Origin: Pseudonocardiales bacterium
GTDB taxonomy: Bacteria; Actinomycetota; Actinomycetes; Mycobacteriales; Jatrophihabitantaceae
Assembly (NCBI GenBank): GCA_025966155.1
Contig: JAOPVO010000303.1
Location: 1-56,618 of the forward strand
DNA length: 56,618 bases
Direction: 5' to 3'
Below, one piece after another: positions 8,890 through 15,965 of the stretch. How positions within the stretch are numbered: the first letter of the stretch is position 1; every line of letters starts with the position of its first letter. Both the position numbers and the translations under genes were made by a program. The notes under the pieces are model-generated. The model was not told where the DNA came from. It worked only from the letters and a program-made list of their open reading frames with translations, and made no database searches.

Positions 8890-8918
8890 TATCATTCTGA
8901 TCGGAATACCCGGTTCAA

Positions 8919-8939
8919 CCGACTTGGTAGCCAAGTCGG
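8919..8939. promoter_or_regulatory. 21-bp perfect palindrome (CCGACTTGG-TAG-CCAAGTCGG), candidate operator or 5'-UTR hairpin
   Basis: Read directly. It ends 22 nt upstream of the GTG of the sulfate-binding protein gene, just before the GGAGG SD, and is preceded by CGGTTCAACC (8911-8920). Confidence 0.5.
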
Positions 8940-8960
8940 AACTCTTTTGGAGGCAGTCCC

Positions 8961-11790: not shown

Positions 11791-12777
11791 ATGGGTATCG
11801 AAGCACGCAATGTCGTCAAGCGATTCGGCAGCTTCACCGCTGTCGATGACGTCTCCCTGAATGTCACCAGCGGCAACCTGACGGCGCTGCTCGGCCCCAG
11901 CGGCGGAGGCAAGTCGACGCTGCTGCGGATCATCGCCGGCCTCGAGTCGCCCGATGGCGGCCGCATCCTCATCGACGGCGTCGATTCCACCGGCCTGCCG
12001 CCGCAGCGCCGCGGGGTGGGGTTCGTCTTCCAGCACTACGCCGCGTTCAAGCACCTATCGGTGTACCGGAATGTGGCGTTCGGGCTCGAGATCCGCCGCC
12101 GTCCGAAGGCCGAGATCCGCAAGCGCGTGCACGAGCTCCTGGAGCTCGTCCACCTCGAGCAGTTCGCCGATCGGCTGCCGTCGCAGCTATCGGGCGGCCA
12201 GCGGCAGCGGATGGCCCTGGCCCGGGCGCTGGCGGTTGAGCCCAAGGTGCTCCTGCTGGACGAGCCGTTCGGCGCCTTGGACGCCAAGGTGCGCAAGGAG
12301 CTTCGCGATTGGCTGCGCCGTCTGCACGACGAGGTGCATGTGACCACCCTGTTCGTCACGCACGACCAGGAGGAGGCGCTGGAGGTGTCCGACGAGCTCG
12401 TCGTGATCAACAACGGCCGCATCGAGCAGATCGGGTCGCCCAACGACCTCTATGATAAGCCGGCTAACGAATTCGTGATGGGCTTCCTGGGCCCGGTGAC
12501 GCAGCTGGGCGGGCGCCTGGTGCGCCCGCACGACATCGAGGTGCTGCTGACCGCCGAGCCCGGCACGATCGAGGCCACTGTGCAGCGCGTGCAGCGGGTC
12601 GGATTCGAGGTCCGGGTCGACTTCGCCACGCCCGCCTCCGCGGCCGTGACGACCGTGCAGCTGACGCGCGGGCAGGCCGATTCCCTCGGCATCCGCGACG
12701 GGCTGCGAATCTGGCTCCGGGCCGCGCCCAACGCATCGACGATCGTCGCCGCGCCGTCGCTAGCCAAGACGCTCTAG
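11791..12777 (+). CDS. cysA: sulfate ABC transporter ATP-binding protein CysA
   Basis: ATG 11791 with an AAGGGGA SD. Walker [10 protein letters not shown], signature LSGGQRQR, Walker B LLLDEPF, C-terminal TOBE-like domain. Confidence 0.92.
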
Positions 12778-12783
12778 GCCGCA

Positions 12784-13221
12784 ATGCAGATCTCCGCCCG
12801 ATCGGACTACGCGCTCCGCGCCATGCTCGTCCTCGCCGACCGGGTGCCGGAGTGGGTGAGCGTCACGGACCTGGCGCAGAACCAGCAACTGCCCCGACCG
12901 TTCCTGGAGCAGATCCTGGGCGAGCTGCGCCGGGCCCGGCTGGTGCGCAGCCAGCGCGGCGCCCGCGGCGGCTACACCATCGAGGGAACGGCCGACTCGA
13001 TCAGCCTCGGCTCGATCATCCGCGTTGTCGAGGGCACCCTGACCGAGGTGCGCGGGCGCCTGCCCGGCGATCTGGCCTATACCGGGCCGGCCGCTCTGCT
13101 GCCGCAGATCATGCTGGCCGTCGACGCCAGCGTCCGGTCGGTTCTCGACGACACGACGCTGGCCGACGTGATCAACGGCACGCTGCCCGCCCACGTTCAA
13201 TCGCTGCTAGCGGCGGGCTAG
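12784..13221 (+). CDS. Rrf2 family transcriptional regulator, cysteine-free (CymR-like)
   Basis: MQISARSDYALRAMLVLA... wHTH ...LVRSQRGARGGY. Only 6 nt after cysA, so probably co-transcribed. The 145-aa sequence contains no Cys. Confidence 0.9.
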   Translation: MQISARSDYALRAMLVLADRVPEWVSVTDLAQNQQLPRPFLEQILGELRRARLVRSQRGARGGYTIEGTADSISLGSIIRVVEGTLTEVRGRLPGDLAYTGPAALLPQIMLAVDASVRSVLDDTTLADVINGTLPAHVQSLLAAG

Positions 13222-13713
13222 GCGGTCCTCGGCGAGGGACAGCCGGCGGGACACATCGGCGCAGTCCTCGCAGATCGACTCGGGGATCACGTGCAGGCGC
13301 ATGAGGAAGCCGAACACGATGCAGCCGATGCACACGGCGAGGATCGACTCCAGCGCCGCGGCGATGGAGATCAGGACCAGAAGCACCAGCACGGCGGTGG
13401 TCTGCCCGAACGCGAAGTGCAGGATCGCCGCCGCTGTCGTGATCACCGCGCCCATGGCCTGGGCGAACCGCTTCGGCGGCCCGGGGACCAGGCGCGGTGC
13501 GCCCAGCTGCGGCGCGATCACCCGCGTCGCCAGCTGGCCCAGCGGGCTGAGCGTCGGCCCGGTCGCGGTGCGGGCGATGAAGCCGTACGCCAGCACCGCG
13601 GTCAGCCAGAGCTGGCCGGTCGCGACTGTCAGCACGCTAAGGATCAGCACCCCGGCGGCGACGGTGCGGGCGGCCTTCTCGTTGACCGGATTCGGGAATC
13701 CGATGATGCTCAT
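13207..13713 (-). CDS. DUF4395 family membrane protein
   Basis: Start MSIIGFPNPVNEKAAR (ATG at 13713). Four TM segments. C-terminal Cys pairs CIGC and CEDC. The upstream part of ORF 13207..13965 is Arg/Gly junk overlapping the rhodanese gene. Confidence 0.75.
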   Translation of the reverse strand: MSIIGFPNPVNEKAARTVAAGVLILSVLTVATGQLWLTAVLAYGFIARTATGPTLSPLGQLATRVIAPQLGAPRLVPGPPKRFAQAMGAVITTAAAILHFAFGQTTAVLVLLVLISIAAALESILAVCIGCIVFGFLMRLHVIPESICEDCADVSRRLSLAEDRLARR

Positions 13714-13736
13714 GGAGCCGACTCTAGAGTCCGCGC

Positions 13737-14273
13737 TCAGTTGCGCCCATGCACCGGCGCCGGGCTGTGCCGACGACGGTCGCGGGCGGCGAAGGCGTTG
13801 GCGGCATCCAGCAGCGGGACTGTCGCCTCGACGGCGGTCTCGCCGAAGCGGGTCGGCAGCTGCGCGGCCTGCCAGGCGTGGAATCCGCCCTCGATGTCGG
13901 TTGCCGTCACGCCGATCGAGTTCAGGGCATCGGCCGCCAGGGAGGATGTGTAGCCCTCCGAGCACAGCACGATCCAGGTCCGGCCGTCGGCCTGGGGAAG
14001 CCGGGCGGGGGAGTGCTGGTCAAGGCGCCATTCGAGGTGGTTGCGCTCGACGATGATGCTGCCGGGCACCTCGCCCTCGACGCGCCGCTGCCAGGACGGG
14101 CGGATGTCGACCAGCCCGGCTCCGGCGCCGACCGCGCGCCAGGCCTCGAGCGGCGTCATCCGCCGAAGCCGCGAGCGGGCGTCGTCGAGCAGTCCGTCGA
14201 TGCCCCGGAATCGGGCAGGCGCGCGGGCGATCGGCGGGCGGGGGAGGGGCGGACGCGTGAGGGCGGCGGTCAT
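13737..14273 (-). CDS. rhodanese-like single-domain sulfurtransferase
   Basis: Rhodanese fold with active-site loop CSEGYTS and GGFHAW. The ATG overlaps the stop of the upstream dioxygenase gene (ATGA at 14270-14273). Confidence 0.8.
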   Translation of the reverse strand: MTAALTRPPLPRPPIARAPARFRGIDGLLDDARSRLRRMTPLEAWRAVGAGAGLVDIRPSWQRRVEGEVPGSIIVERNHLEWRLDQHSPARLPQADGRTWIVLCSEGYTSSLAADALNSIGVTATDIEGGFHAWQAAQLPTRFGETAVEATVPLLDAANAFAARDRRRHSPAPVHGRN

Positions 14274-14833
14274 AGCAGCGGCTCGGCATTCTCGAGGGAG
14301 GCCTCGGGGTCATCGGTGTCGAGCTGCGCGATGCGCGTCAGCCCGCCGTCGTCGGCAAGGTCGTAGAAGGTCATGGAGGTCAGCGGCGGGGAGTAGGCGT
14401 GCACGCTGACCGCGGGCCGGGCCGAGGTGTTCAGCACGTCATGGACGTAGCGCGGCCCGAACGACACGGTCGCCCCGGCCTGGCGATCCCGGCGCTGAAG
14501 ATGCGCGGCGGTGCGGGGGCCGGCGAGGGAGGCCTCCTCGAGGGCGCCCTCCAGCACGGTGAATGCCCCGGACGAGCCGCCGTGGTCGTGCAGCTGGGTG
14601 CCCTGCGCCGGCATCCAGGTGATGAGCCAGACGTCGACGCGGTCGTCGCGGTACAGCCGCTGGTGCCATCGGCTCTGCGCATCGAAGCGCCACGGATGGG
14701 AGCCGGCGAGCAGCTCCTGCGCCAGGAAGCGGGTGTGGTCGCCCAGCTGGGCGACAGTCAGCGGACCCCGGGCGCTGGCGGTGCGGCTGGCAGTGCGCCG
14801 GATCCGGGCGGGCGAGCGGAGGGCGGTGGTCAC
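14270..14833 (-). CDS. cysteine dioxygenase type I family protein (cupin)
   Basis: 3-His iron site LHDHGG...YVHDV, SVHAYSPPL (Tyr157 region), Gly at the mammalian Cys93 position as in bacterial CDOs, and an Arg (HQRLY) aligning with substrate-binding Arg60. GTG 14833 has a GGAG SD 8 nt upstream; ATG 14917 lacks one. Confidence 0.8.
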   Translation of the reverse strand: MTTALRSPARIRRTASRTASARGPLTVAQLGDHTRFLAQELLAGSHPWRFDAQSRWHQRLYRDDRVDVWLITWMPAQGTQLHDHGGSSGAFTVLEGALEEASLAGPRTAAHLQRRDRQAGATVSFGPRYVHDVLNTSARPAVSVHAYSPPLTSMTFYDLADDGGLTRIAQLDTDDPEASLENAEPLL

Positions 14834-14876
14834 GGGTGATGCTCCAGTCAGGGGGTCGGCGAGGGAGTGGGGACGG

Positions 14877-14922
14877 CGGCACAGCGACAACACATCGCGG
14901 CACAGCGCATCGCGCAACAGCG
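14877..14922. repeat. imperfect direct repeats upstream of the dioxygenase operon
   Basis: CGGCACAGCG at 14877-14886 and 14898-14907 (21-bp period). Adjacent 15-mers CATCGCGGCACAGCG (14893-14907) and CATCGCGCAACAGCG (14908-14922) match at 13/15 positions. Confidence 0.5.
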
Positions 14923-15164
14923 GCTCATCGCCAGGGGACGCGTCCAGCTCACCTCGGGACCTCCTTTCCGCATCGCCGCGCCGTGCGCGGGTCGGGCGGC
15001 GCGGCGGTTCTCCGCCGGCAGCAGCTCTATCATCCGCGCCGGCGCGGCCGTTGTCTACTCCATCGCTAGATAAACTAGGCTTGGGCGCGGTTCAACCTGG
15101 GGCGTGTCCCGGGTGACACGCTCGCCCCCCGCGCAGGCGCGGCGGGCGCATCCCGAGGAAGATC

Positions 15165-15965
15165 GTGACCATGACTACGACAGACTCGCTGCCCGACCGC
15201 GCCGATGCGCCGCCGATCGCCTCCTGGGACGAGCCCGAGGGCCTGGCGGCGCGCGGGACGGTGATTGTCGTAGTCGGGCGGGGCGAGCACCCGGGCCTCT
15301 ACGAGCGGTTCGGGCGCCGCATCTCGGCCGACGCCTGGCGGGTCCGCGCCGTCGCCGACCCCATCACGGCGCCCGATGCCGCCGCCGAGCAGATCGCCGC
15401 GCTGCTCAGCGACCCCGACCTGCCCGAGCCCAAGGTCCTGGTGGGCTCGGATTCCGGCGCGGCCTATGTGGCCGCACGGGTGTCCGCCGGCGAGCTGGCC
15501 CCGGCCGGCGTCGTGCTGGTCGGCCTGCCGACCACCCCCTCCGCAGCGGACCGCGATGAGCTGCGCGACTGGGATGCCGAGCTGCTGGAGCGCACGTCCT
15601 GCCCGGCGCACCGGGCCCGCCTGACCGCCGACACCGGCATGCGCCGCGGCGCGATCGGCGGCGACGCCGTCCCGCAGGCCTGGCTGGAGGCCGTGGCGCC
15701 GAGCGCGTTGGGCGTGCCGGTGCTCGGCCTGCACGGCGCGGCCGACCGGATCAGCCCGCTGGCCGACGTCCGGGCGATCTACGCCCAGGCCCCGCAGGCC
15801 CGGCTGGTGAGCATCGTCGGGGGCAAGCACGACGCGCTCAACGACAAGACCCATCGCGTCGCGGCCGCGACGACGATGCTGTTCCTCGAGAGCCTCAAGG
15901 AGGGCCCGGACGTGCCCGAGATCGCCCATACCGAGGACCTCCGCGCGACGGGATCGGCTCTGTGA
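15165..15965 (+). CDS. alpha/beta hydrolase
   Basis: Nucleophile elbow VGSDSGAAY, later LHGAADRISP and GGKHDAL (Asp/His candidates). GAGGAAG SD before GTG 15165 (ATG 15171 is an alternative). Confidence 0.7.
   Translation: MTMTTTDSLPDRADAPPIASWDEPEGLAARGTVIVVVGRGEHPGLYERFGRRISADAWRVRAVADPITAPDAAAEQIAALLSDPDLPEPKVLVGSDSGAAYVAARVSAGELAPAGVVLVGLPTTPSAADRDELRDWDAELLERTSCPAHRARLTADTGMRRGAIGGDAVPQAWLEAVAPSALGVPVLGLHGAADRISPLADVRAIYAQAPQARLVSIVGGKHDALNDKTHRVAAATTMLFLESLKEGPDVPEIAHTEDLRATGSAL

What the first reader, a model, noticed from the sequence alone, without database searches (positions are those of the whole stretch)
13207..14833. Translationally coupled cysteine dioxygenase - rhodanese - DUF4395 operon
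A bacterial-type CDO (3-His site, Tyr in HAYSPP, Gly at the Cys93 position, Arg aligned with Arg60) overlaps by ATGA a single-domain rhodanese (CSEGYTS loop). It is followed 23 nt later by a 4-TM DUF4395 protein ending in two Cys pairs (CIGC, CEDC). CDO alone makes cysteine sulfinate. A dedicated sulfurtransferase plus a membrane protein with redox- or metal-type Cys pairs suggests a thiol or persulfide detoxification or sulfur-relay module. DUF4395 has no assigned function, and I am not aware of a described role for this trio. The enzyme could also be a 3-mercaptopropionate or persulfide-type dioxygenase rather than a true CDO.
Basis: partly seen in the sequence, partly recalled or inferred. 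Interest (0 to 1): 0.6.

Follow-up and report, generated by a model that had tools for sequence, protein, structure and literature searches.

The report
Cysteine dioxygenase–rhodanese pair plus hitchhiking DUF4395
The three genes are real, but only the thiol dioxygenase and its rhodanese partner travel together across Actinobacteria (sometimes fused into one protein), while the DUF4395 membrane protein sits beside them only in this lineage; the pairing suggests that these "cysteine dioxygenases" work together with a sulfur-transfer enzyme.

Summary
Every sequence-level claim checks out. On the minus strand lie a CDO_I-family dioxygenase (14270-14833), a single-domain rhodanese (13737-14273) joined to it by an ATGA overlap, and a 4-helix DUF4395 protein (13207-13713) 23 nt further on.

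The "trio" is not a conserved module. Of 149 other CDO loci scanned with a DUF4395 HMM, only one has a DUF4395 nearby, and there it is divergent. None of 80 DUF4395 loci has a CDO or this rhodanese within 4 kb. DUF4395 has no conserved neighbour at all.

The conserved unit is the two-gene pair:
- 24 of 29 loci in related genomes have it.
- 69 of 72 soil-metagenome loci with enough room have it.
- 13 of 40 phylum-wide CDO loci have it.
- Natural CDO-rhodanese fusion proteins exist.

The dioxygenase has the 3-His site, the Ser-His-Tyr motif, Gly at the Cys93 position and a probable Arg60 equivalent. That is the Arg-type bacterial CDO profile. It lies outside the rhodanese-less clade that holds its best PDB hit, 8QFL.

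The rhodanese role (taking sulfite, or supplying a persulfide) is inferred, not shown.

Side lead: other DUF4395 proteins carry a C-terminal thioredoxin-fold domain. This points to a membrane CxxC redox protein.

Overall this is a new variant of a known kind, of moderate interest.

The parts
14270..14833 (-). CDO_I-family (Arg-type) thiol dioxygenase, 187 aa, GTG start
   Evidence: PF05995 70.8 bits. 3-His H82/H84/H131 and S143-H145-Y147 are invariant. Best PDB hits are 8qfl-8qfr at E 1.5e-19, then B. subtilis and rat CDO. Orthologues of 52-64% identity occur in the same family.
13737..14273 (-). Single-domain rhodanese, 178 aa, ATGA stop/start overlap with the dioxygenase
   Evidence: PF00581 37.4 bits. 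Catalytic-loop motif C-x-E-G-Y-T-S-S-L is conserved in 101 orthologues. It lies immediately downstream of the dioxygenase in 24/29, 13/40 and 69/72 loci. It is fused to the dioxygenase in P0241-P0252 and in L146.
13714..13736 (-). 23-nt spacer between rhodanese and DUF4395; contains the 12-bp perfect palindrome GACTCTAGAGTC (13720-13731); no strong Shine-Dalgarno sequence, no terminator
   Evidence: Read directly from the sequence. No terminator-like site in 12700-15300.
13207..13713 (-). DUF4395 membrane protein, 168 aa, 4 long helices, CIGC at the end of helix 4 and CEDC in the tail; the only copy in this genome
   Evidence: PF14340 107.4 bits. Single copy in G000. Four invariant Cys plus the FPNPVNE, GPTLSPLG and GPPKRFAQ motifs. 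AF2 pLDDT 85.8. Linkage to the CDO pair is not conserved.
14834..15164 (.). 331-nt divergent control region between the dioxygenase operon and the hydrolase-SseA-oxidase operon; one sigma-70-like site on the minus strand (15057-15029); the 10-mer CGGTTCAACC at 15088-15097 is shared with the cysP promoter (8911-8920)
   Evidence: The 10-mer count with 1 mismatch is not above shuffles; the two exact copies both precede an inverted repeat. Function untested.
12784..13221 (+). Convergent Rrf2/CymR-like regulator ending the sulfate-importer operon; its 3' end overlaps the DUF4395 3' end (13207-13221)
   Evidence: PF02082 107.4 bits; NCBIfam CymR 81.5 bits, below its cut-off. An Rrf2 gene also lies directly upstream of the pair in L005.

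Best explanation
The functional unit is a two-gene module: a CDO-family (cupin, 3-His iron) thiol dioxygenase and a single-domain rhodanese made in equal amounts through translational coupling.

The dioxygenase has the residue profile of bacterial Arg-type cysteine dioxygenases. It therefore most likely oxidises cysteine, or a cysteine-like thiol bearing a carboxylate, to a sulfinate with O2.

The rhodanese, through its conserved Cys loop, most likely handles the sulfur that enters or leaves this reaction. It would either combine the sulfite that arises from the sulfinate with a Cys-persulfide to give thiosulfate, as the rhodanese domain does in persulfide dioxygenase-rhodanese fusions, or it would present a persulfide to the iron site.

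In this genome the pair sits in a sulfur island (sulfate importer, two Cys-free Rrf2 regulators, an SseA-type sulfurtransferase operon) and probably serves cysteine/sulfane-sulfur homeostasis.

The DUF4395 gene is a recent, lineage-specific addition to the 3' end of the operon. It is probably co-transcribed here but is not part of the conserved machinery. It is itself a widespread membrane protein with an invariant CxGC motif, and in other lineages it is fused to a thioredoxin-fold domain, so it is probably a redox or thiol-handling membrane protein.

Shown: gene anatomy, family membership, conservation of the pair, existence of fusions, non-conservation of the trio. Inferred: substrate, role of the rhodanese, co-transcription, role of DUF4395.
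For: Pair linkage:
- 24 of 29 CDO loci in related genomes have the rhodanese directly downstream (includes L008 from the unpublished genome G427).
- 13 of 40 phylum-wide CDO loci have it, among them the Streptomyces-like genomes' best Pfam CDO_I matches, L113 and L114.
- 69 of 72 metagenome loci with at least 300 nt of room have it.

Fusions:
- 10 of 12 longer homologues carry PF05995 plus PF00581.
- This was confirmed by hmmscan for P0241, P0250 and the genomic ORF L146:2496-3341.

Tree: rhodanese-linked enzymes occupy most lineages. Two well-supported clades (17 rows and 5 rows, support 99) lack the partner.

Residues:
- H82/H84/H131, S143/H145/Y147, R55/H57/R59/Y61 are invariant.
- Gly is at the Cys93 position.
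- The H-x-R pattern matches the Y58-x-R60 of CDO and the Q64-x-R66 of MSDO, which bind a substrate carboxylate (preprint 10.64898/2026.05.19.726356).

Rhodanese: the catalytic-loop Cys is conserved in 101 orthologues.

Precedents:
- msdo is clustered with a rhodanese gene in Variovorax and Advenella (PMC5373536).
- The CstB persulfide dioxygenase-rhodanese fusion makes thiosulfate (PMC12934615).

DUF4395 is not linked:
- 0 of 80 DUF4395 loci have a CDO or this rhodanese.
- 1 of 149 other CDO loci has a DUF4395.
- No neighbour cluster exceeds 14 of 80 loci.

DUF4395-thioredoxin fusions.
Against: - No experiment bears on the substrate.
- The best PDB hit (8qfl series, about 40% identity over the aligned residues 51-171) is, from my memory only, an ergothioneine dioxygenase, which shows that this actinobacterial branch has diversified in substrate.
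- The Arg60 equivalence depends on a gapped alignment that I could not verify on coordinates.
- The rhodanese loop carries a conserved Glu, unusual for thiosulfate- or sulfite-binding loops. This argues against a simple anion-handling role.
- A true CDO needs no sulfurtransferase in any characterised system.
- Contig-length coincidences (15809, 4937, 11112 and 3202 nt) hint that some metagenomic relatives carry CDO(-rhodanese) and DUF4395 on one contig. Together with the divergent neighbour in G280, a loose functional tie of DUF4395 to the pair is not excluded.
Confidence: 0.6

Rival explanations
1. Cupin-type persulfide dioxygenase system. The rhodanese Cys-persulfide, or a low-molecular-weight persulfide it loads, is the true substrate of the CDO-like iron site. 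Sulfane sulfur is oxidised to sulfite or thiosulfate. The pair would be a non-homologous functional equivalent of ETHE1/CstB persulfide dioxygenase-rhodanese fusions.
For: - Near-obligate pairing and repeated fusion of the two proteins are what is seen for persulfide dioxygenase-rhodanese fusions (PMC12934615).
- A free-cysteine dioxygenase has no known need for a sulfurtransferase.
- The locus lies in a sulfur island next to an SseA-type persulfide-forming enzyme.
Against: - The active-site profile (Ser-His-Tyr, H-x-R) is that of small-thiol dioxygenases that chelate an amino or carboxy thiol.
- No CDO-family enzyme is known to act on persulfides.
- Nothing here was tested.
Confidence: 0.2
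2. Dioxygenase, rhodanese and DUF4395 act together, with the membrane protein's Cys pairs receiving or exporting sulfur from the rhodanese.
For: - A 23-nt gap and no terminator, so co-transcription is probable.
- A second, independent adjacency exists in G280: a fused CDO-rhodanese divergent from a DUF4395-thioredoxin gene.
- Four contig-length coincidences in metagenomic relatives.
- A weak N-terminal resemblance to the membrane domain of the rhodanese YgaP (E 0.15, below threshold).
Against: - 0 of 46 metagenome loci with room, 0 of 29 loci in relatives and 0 of 80 DUF4395-centred loci show the trio.
- In genomes sampled from the same family that carry both genes, they lie on different contigs or far apart.
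- DUF4395 is found in nearly twice as many genomes as CDO (156 against 82 of 401).
Confidence: 0.12
3. The dioxygenase is specific for another thiol or thione (ergothioneine, mercaptosuccinate, 3-mercaptopropionate, mycothiol) rather than cysteine.
For: - The closest solved structures are the 8qfl series, which I recall as ergothioneine dioxygenase.
- The mercaptosuccinate dioxygenase gene is clustered with a rhodanese gene.
Against: - The tree puts the window protein outside the rhodanese-less clade that holds the 8qfl-like sequences.
- At the strand facing the substrate it has H57/R59/Y61 where the 8qfl-like proteins have Tyr/Ser/His.
- It keeps Ser in the Ser-His-Tyr motif, where MSDO has His, and it lacks the Arg that MSDO (R175) and MDO (R168) use 9-10 residues after the Tyr.
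Confidence: 0.1

Closest known systems
Bacterial Arg-type cysteine dioxygenases (B. subtilis CDO, PDB 3eqe/4qm8; Streptomyces CDOs)
   Same: Cupin fold family PF05995. 3-His iron site. Ser-His-Tyr motif. Gly instead of the mammalian crosslinking Cys93. An Arg two residues after an aromatic or His residue on the substrate-facing strand.
   Different: Only E 1.6e-9 to the B. subtilis enzyme. It has an obligate rhodanese partner that no characterised CDO is described with. Activity is untested.
PDB 8qfl-8qfr, deposited as 'cysteine dioxygenase' (from memory: ergothioneine dioxygenase of an actinobacterium)
   Same: Best solved relative, E 1.5e-19, about 40% identity over the aligned residues 51-171. 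Same actinobacterial radiation.
   Different: The window protein lies in another clade and has different substrate-facing residues (H57/R59/Y61 against Tyr/Ser/His). The 8qfl-like genes in my sample (L119, L129, L135, L140, L148) have no rhodanese neighbour.
Mercaptosuccinate dioxygenase gene regions of Variovorax paradoxus B4 and Advenella mimigardefordensis
   Same: A CDO homologue clustered with a rhodanese-domain gene. The product sulfinate releases sulfite (PMC5373536).
   Different: In the Advenella gene region the rhodanese gene is two genes downstream, after a cystathionine beta-lyase gene, not translationally coupled or fused. MSDO has His in place of Ser in the Ser-His-Tyr motif and a second Arg (R175) that is absent here.
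Persulfide dioxygenase-rhodanese fusions (CstB of S. aureus and other PRFs)
   Same: A non-heme iron sulfur dioxygenase coupled 1:1, or fused, to a catalytic rhodanese. This is a plausible model for why the two activities are tied (PMC12934615).
   Different: The dioxygenase there has the ETHE1 metallo-beta-lactamase fold, not a cupin. There is no homology, so the resemblance is in working principle only.
Membrane thiol-disulfide oxidoreductases with thioredoxin-like partner domains (VKOR-Trx fusions, DsbB/DsbA, CcdA/DsbD); comparison for DUF4395 only
   Same: A small helical membrane protein with a conserved CxxC, fused in some lineages to a thioredoxin-fold CxxC domain.
   Different: No sequence or fold match to any of them. 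Both Cys pairs are predicted on the cytoplasmic, Arg-rich side, which would also fit a 4-Cys metal site.

Membership tests
Cysteine dioxygenase type I family (PF05995) | Profile match above the curated cut-off | tested here: met
   70.8 bits against a cut-off of 23, E 1.3e-19, profile positions 53-168.
Cysteine dioxygenase type I family (PF05995) | Three His iron ligands (rat H86, H88, H140) | tested here: met
   H82, H84 and H131 are invariant in 18 homologues. They align with the HDH and (V/L)H motifs of rat CDO and the 8qfl protein.
Cysteine dioxygenase type I family (PF05995) | Ser-His-Tyr outer-sphere motif (rat S153, H155, Y157) | tested here: met
   S143, H145 and Y147, in the motif SVHAYSPPL, are invariant.
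Authentic (Arg-type) cysteine dioxygenase | Arg equivalent to rat Arg60, which binds the cysteine carboxylate | tested here: inconclusive
   R59 is invariant and the H57-x-R59 pattern fits Y58-x-R60. The alignment to rat and B. subtilis CDO needs a gap in the hairpin, and no coordinates were available to check it.
Authentic (Arg-type) cysteine dioxygenase | Cysteine to cysteine sulfinate activity | not testable with these tools
   Needs an enzyme assay.
Mammalian-type CDO | Cys93-Tyr157 crosslink | tested here: not met
   Gly89 is at the Cys93 position, as in other bacterial CDOs.
3-mercaptopropionate dioxygenase (Gln-type) | Gln in place of Arg60, and an Arg about 9 residues after the motif Tyr (MDO R168) | tested here: not met
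   Arg at 59. Residues 156-157 are invariant Phe and Tyr, not Arg. The MDO structure 3uss/4tlf matches only at E 0.0037.
Mercaptosuccinate dioxygenase | [quoted passage not shown] | tested here: not met
   Ser143 is kept and there is no Arg175 equivalent. Only the x-R part is shared.
8qfl-like clade (ergothioneine dioxygenase, identity of the entry from memory) | Placement in the same clade, with the same substrate-facing residues | tested here: not met
   The window protein sits outside the 17-row rhodanese-less clade (support 99) that holds the 8qfl-like rows. Residues 57/59/61 differ.
Rhodanese (PF00581), catalytic sulfurtransferase type | Profile match, and an active-site Cys at the start of a six-residue loop | tested here: met
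   37.4 bits against a cut-off of 22.2. Motif C-x-E-G-Y-T-S-S-L is conserved in 101 orthologues. Activity was not tested.
Persulfide dioxygenase-rhodanese fusion (PRF/CstB) | ETHE1-type metallo-beta-lactamase dioxygenase domain | tested here: not met
   The dioxygenase is a cupin of PF05995. The resemblance is functional only.
DUF4395 (PF14340) | Profile match over the whole domain | tested here: met
   107.4 bits, profile positions 1-130 of 130.
Conserved CDO-rhodanese-DUF4395 gene trio (as proposed) | The three families are neighbours in other genomes | tested here: not met
   1 of 149 other CDO loci. 0 of 80 DUF4395 loci. In the same taxonomic family the genes are apart.

The most novel reading that the evidence does not exclude
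Actinobacterial 'cysteine dioxygenases' are really one half of a two-protein, cupin-based sulfane-sulfur oxidation machine. The rhodanese persulfide is either the substrate of, or the obligatory acceptor for, the iron site. This would be a convergent counterpart of ETHE1/CstB persulfide dioxygenase-rhodanese fusions. DUF4395 would be a new class of membrane CxxC redox protein that in a few lineages plugs into this pathway.
Probability: 0.15. Interest if true: 0.75.

Novelty: new variant of a known kind. Interest (0 to 1): 0.42.

Why it matters
CDO is treated as a stand-alone enzyme that disposes of excess cysteine. Here its actinobacterial relatives are tied to a catalytic rhodanese. In the window's own branch that holds for 24 of 29 loci in related genomes and 69 of 72 soil contigs with room. 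Across the phylum it holds for 13 of 40 loci. The two are repeatedly fused.

This means the enzymology of these proteins has probably been studied without their partner, and the physiological reaction may involve sulfite capture or persulfide chemistry. The pair occurs in genomes that appear to be Mycobacterium-like and Streptomyces-like, so tractable hosts may be available and it should be easy to test.

Separately, the fusion of DUF4395 to thioredoxin-fold domains gives a first testable idea for a domain of unknown function found in about 40% of sampled Actinomycetota genomes.

Tried and rejected
1. Trio conservation was tested four ways and rejected: coordinate comparison of PF14340 and PF05995 hits in 401 phylum genomes; 29 loci in relatives; 80 DUF4395-centred loci; and 80 metagenome CDO loci plus an HMM rescan of all 150 CDO loci, the window's own included. 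Two look-alike coordinate coincidences (G401 C4 against C6, G344 C11 against C12) were checked and lie on different contigs.

2. A search for any conserved neighbour of DUF4395 found none above 14 of 80 loci. The neighbours were Ppx/GppA, a ThDP enzyme and an Rce1-like protease.

3. A search for conserved neighbours of the pair found only generic synteny (2-oxoacid:ferredoxin oxidoreductase, M48 peptidase, RmlA-like transferase, carbonic anhydrase) and one unknown ORF of about 130 aa that is absent from the window.

4. DUF4395 fold search:
   - Foldseek against the PDB gave nothing at E <= 0.001.
   - VIA-align wide gave only generic four-helix bundles, best Z 8.4, within the noise range quoted for helical models.
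   - The ESM Atlas returned only DUF4395 clusters.
   - Pfam at E <= 10 gave only YgaP-like_TM at E 0.15.

5. Literature:
   - 'DUF4395' gave two passing mentions.
   - No paper on a CDO-rhodanese pair in Actinobacteria was found.
   - The search for '8QFL' gave only irrelevant hits.
   - The ergothioneine dioxygenase paper and Dominy et al. 2006 are not held, so statements about them rest on memory.

I therefore could not open the 15,809-nt contig that probably carries the nearest relative's version of the operon, and the listing of cluster members gave no accessions.

7. The shared 10-mer CGGTTCAACC is not above chance with one mismatch allowed. It is kept only as a note.
Full report
**Observation**

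The three genes lie head to tail on the minus strand.
- The dioxygenase (14270-14833, GTG start, 187 aa) matches Pfam CDO_I at 70.8 bits.
- The next gene (13737-14273, 178 aa) matches Rhodanese at 37.4 bits. Its ATG overlaps the dioxygenase stop as ATGA.
- The third gene (13207-13713, 168 aa) matches DUF4395 at 107.4 bits over the full profile. It follows after 23 nt.
- NCBIfam names none of the three. The rhodanese resembles only the N-terminal rhodanese domain of a MoeB model, far below its cut-off.
- No terminator-like site lies in 12700-15300.
- The genome, a MAG of 361 contigs and 85% completeness, has one CDO_I match and one DUF4395 match, both here.
- Source names on homologues point to Jatrophihabitans and Jatrophihabitantaceae.

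**Is the trio conserved? No.**

- In a sample of 401 genomes of the phylum, DUF4395 was found in 156 and CDO_I in 82. These tallies include unpublished genomes listed by the tool: G268, G001, G174, G018, G148, G343, G120, G391, G226, G336 and G239. Comparing coordinates, the two families are neighbours only in the window's genome and in G280.
- In 60 relatives, 36 of them in the same taxonomic family, orthologous dioxygenases (52-64% identity) and DUF4395 genes are both common. They lie on different contigs or megabases apart. These tallies include the unpublished genomes G404, G427 and G442.
- None of 80 DUF4395-centred loci from species genomes (54-64% identical to the window protein, with up to 4 kb on each side) holds a CDO or this rhodanese.
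- None of 46 soil-metagenome CDO loci with at least 1100 nt downstream holds a DUF4395.
- A profile HMM of DUF4395 was run over six-frame translations of all 150 CDO loci. It hit only the window's own locus and L146, which is G280.
- DUF4395 has no conserved neighbour of any kind. The best neighbour cluster covers 14 of 80 loci and is Ppx/GppA.

Hints of a narrow subclade with the trio remain, as inference only.
- The closest metagenomic dioxygenase (P0003, 78%) and the closest-but-four DUF4395 (P0125, 84%) both come from a contig of 15,809 nt.
- Three further pairs share contig lengths of 4937, 11112 and 3202 nt.

**What is conserved: the pair**

The rhodanese lies directly downstream of the dioxygenase in:
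- 24 of 29 loci in relatives. One of the five exceptions is cut by a contig end. The count includes L008 from the unpublished genome G427.
- 13 of 40 CDO loci spread over the phylum.
- 69 of 72 metagenome loci with at least 300 nt of room.

Fusions also exist.
- Ten of twelve homologues longer than 328 aa carry both Pfam domains.
- I confirmed this for P0241, P0250 (a cluster of 14 member sequences) and a genomic ORF, L146:2496-3341.

A quick maximum-likelihood tree of 66 dioxygenases gave these results (the careful search did not finish).
- Rhodanese-linked genes occupy most lineages, including the Streptomyces-like genomes' best Pfam CDO_I matches (L113, L114).
- Two well-supported clades lack the partner: one of 17 rows and one of 5 Streptomyces-like rows.
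- The label needs at least 4 changes on well-supported branches. The linkage is therefore old and has been lost several times, rather than being a recent accident.

**The dioxygenase**

- H82, H84, H131 (iron ligands), S143, H145, Y147 (outer-sphere triad) and R55, W56, H57, R59, Y61, R62 are invariant in 18 homologues.
- Gly89 sits at the position of rat Cys93, via L113.
- The H57-x-R59 pattern parallels Y58-x-R60 of CDO and Q64-x-R66 of mercaptosuccinate dioxygenase. In both of those the Arg binds a substrate carboxylate (preprint 10.64898/2026.05.19.726356).
- The alignment to rat CDO needs a short gap, so I rate the Arg60 equivalence as probable, not shown.
- The protein keeps Ser in the triad, where MSDO has His. 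It has invariant Phe and Tyr where MDO and MSDO have a second Arg.
- The best solved relatives are 8qfl-8qfr (E 1.5e-19). B. subtilis and mammalian CDOs follow, and MDO is marginal.
- From memory, 8qfl is an ergothioneine dioxygenase. The library does not hold that paper. A preprint only confirms that such an enzyme, ETDO, exists and has a 3-His site.
- The 8qfl-like sequences in my sample (L119, L129, L135, L140, L148) lie in the rhodanese-less clade. They carry Tyr/Ser/His where the window protein has His57/Arg59/Tyr61.
- The profile is therefore that of an Arg-type bacterial CDO, not of the ergothioneine, 3-mercaptopropionate or mercaptosuccinate enzymes.

**The rhodanese**

- Across 101 orthologues the loop reads C-[S/T/A]-E-G-Y-T-S-S-L. 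Further conserved blocks are VDIRP, ERN-LEWRL and GG.
- The catalytic Cys and the six-residue loop fit an active sulfurtransferase.
- The conserved Glu is unusual for loops that bind thiosulfate or sulfite.
- The nearest solved structures are two uncharacterised proteins, 2hhg and 6mxv.

**Mechanism (inferred)**

Three precedents guide the reading.
- Mercaptosuccinate dioxygenase genes are clustered with a rhodanese gene, and the sulfinate product sheds sulfite (PMC5373536).
- Persulfide dioxygenases are often fused to rhodaneses. In CstB the oxidised sulfur is handed to a persulfidated rhodanese Cys to give thiosulfate without free sulfite (PMC12934615).
- Fusion and translational coupling imply 1:1 stoichiometry.

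I therefore favour coupled chemistry. The iron enzyme oxidises cysteine or a close analogue. The rhodanese either traps the resulting sulfite with a persulfide or feeds a persulfide into the reaction. Which of these holds cannot be told from sequence.

**Context**

- The operon converges on a Cys-free Rrf2/CymR-like gene that ends a sulfate-importer operon. It diverges from a hydrolase, SseA-type sulfurtransferase and flavoprotein operon.
- An Rrf2 gene also lies directly upstream of the pair in one relative (L005).
- Earlier notes of this scan describe the whole block as an 18.8-kb insertion between pnp and pepR. I did not test that.

**DUF4395 in its own right**

- Twenty close homologues share four invariant Cys and the motifs FPNPVNE, GPTLSPLG and GPPKRFAQ.
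- The model has four long helices and an amphipathic helix in the Arg/Lys-rich central loop. By the positive-inside rule, both Cys pairs would face the cytoplasm (inference).
- The family comes in three forms:
  1. The window form, with a CxxC tail.
  2. A minimal form without the tail Cys.
  3. A form fused to a C-terminal domain of about 90 aa with the motifs FTHPLCxDC and VVPT.
- The fused domain hits thioredoxin-type Pfam families repeatedly. In L235 it passes the curated cut-off (26.1 against 23.5 bits). In L252 it hits Thioredoxin_2 at E 9e-5.
- The HMM aligns the window-type tail CxxC onto the thioredoxin CxxC.
- This suggests a membrane CxxC redox or thiol-handling protein. A four-Cys metal site is the alternative.
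- No solved fold matches beyond generic helical bundles.

**Verdict**

- The pair is a robust, widespread and apparently undescribed association within a known enzyme family. I could search only the held library, and two key papers were not available.
- I class it as a new variant of a known kind, of moderate interest.

Noticed in passing
L146:3540-4301 (+); also L233, L235-L242, L244, L248, L252: In several actinobacterial families DUF4395 is fused to a C-terminal thioredoxin-fold domain (motifs FTHPLCxDC and VVPT). The window-type tail CxxC aligns onto that CxxC. This is a first functional lead for DUF4395.
   Followed up: partly
L146:2496-3341 (-): Genomic example of a single ORF fusing the CDO-like domain and the rhodanese (PF05995 plus PF00581). 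It is divergent from the DUF4395-thioredoxin gene.
   Followed up: yes
L174:3298-3798 (+), and 31 other loci: In other lineages a conserved ORF of about 130 aa with no Pfam or NCBIfam match lies just upstream of the dioxygenase on the same strand (32 of 73 loci with room). It is absent from the window.
   Followed up: partly
window 13720-13731: A perfect 12-bp palindrome, GACTCTAGAGTC, fills the middle of the 23-nt spacer between the rhodanese and DUF4395. It could be a junction scar or a small hairpin. The spacer has no clear Shine-Dalgarno sequence.
   Followed up: no
window 8911-8941 and 15088-15125: The exact 10-mer CGGTTCAACC occurs in both the cysP promoter and the divergent promoter of the dioxygenase operon. 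Each copy is followed by an inverted repeat (CCGACTTGG-TAG-CCAAGTCGG, and GCGTGTC-CCGGGT-GACACGC). These are candidate operators of the Cys-free Rrf2 regulators. The count is not above chance with one mismatch allowed.
   Followed up: partly
L005:2311-2736 (-): In one genome of the same family, an Rrf2 gene 55% identical to the window's lies directly upstream of the dioxygenase-rhodanese pair on the same strand.
   Followed up: no
L023, L026, L030: In three relatives the dioxygenase reading frame is broken or shifted (split tblastn hits, divergent C-terminal halves). These are either assembly errors or decaying copies.
   Followed up: no
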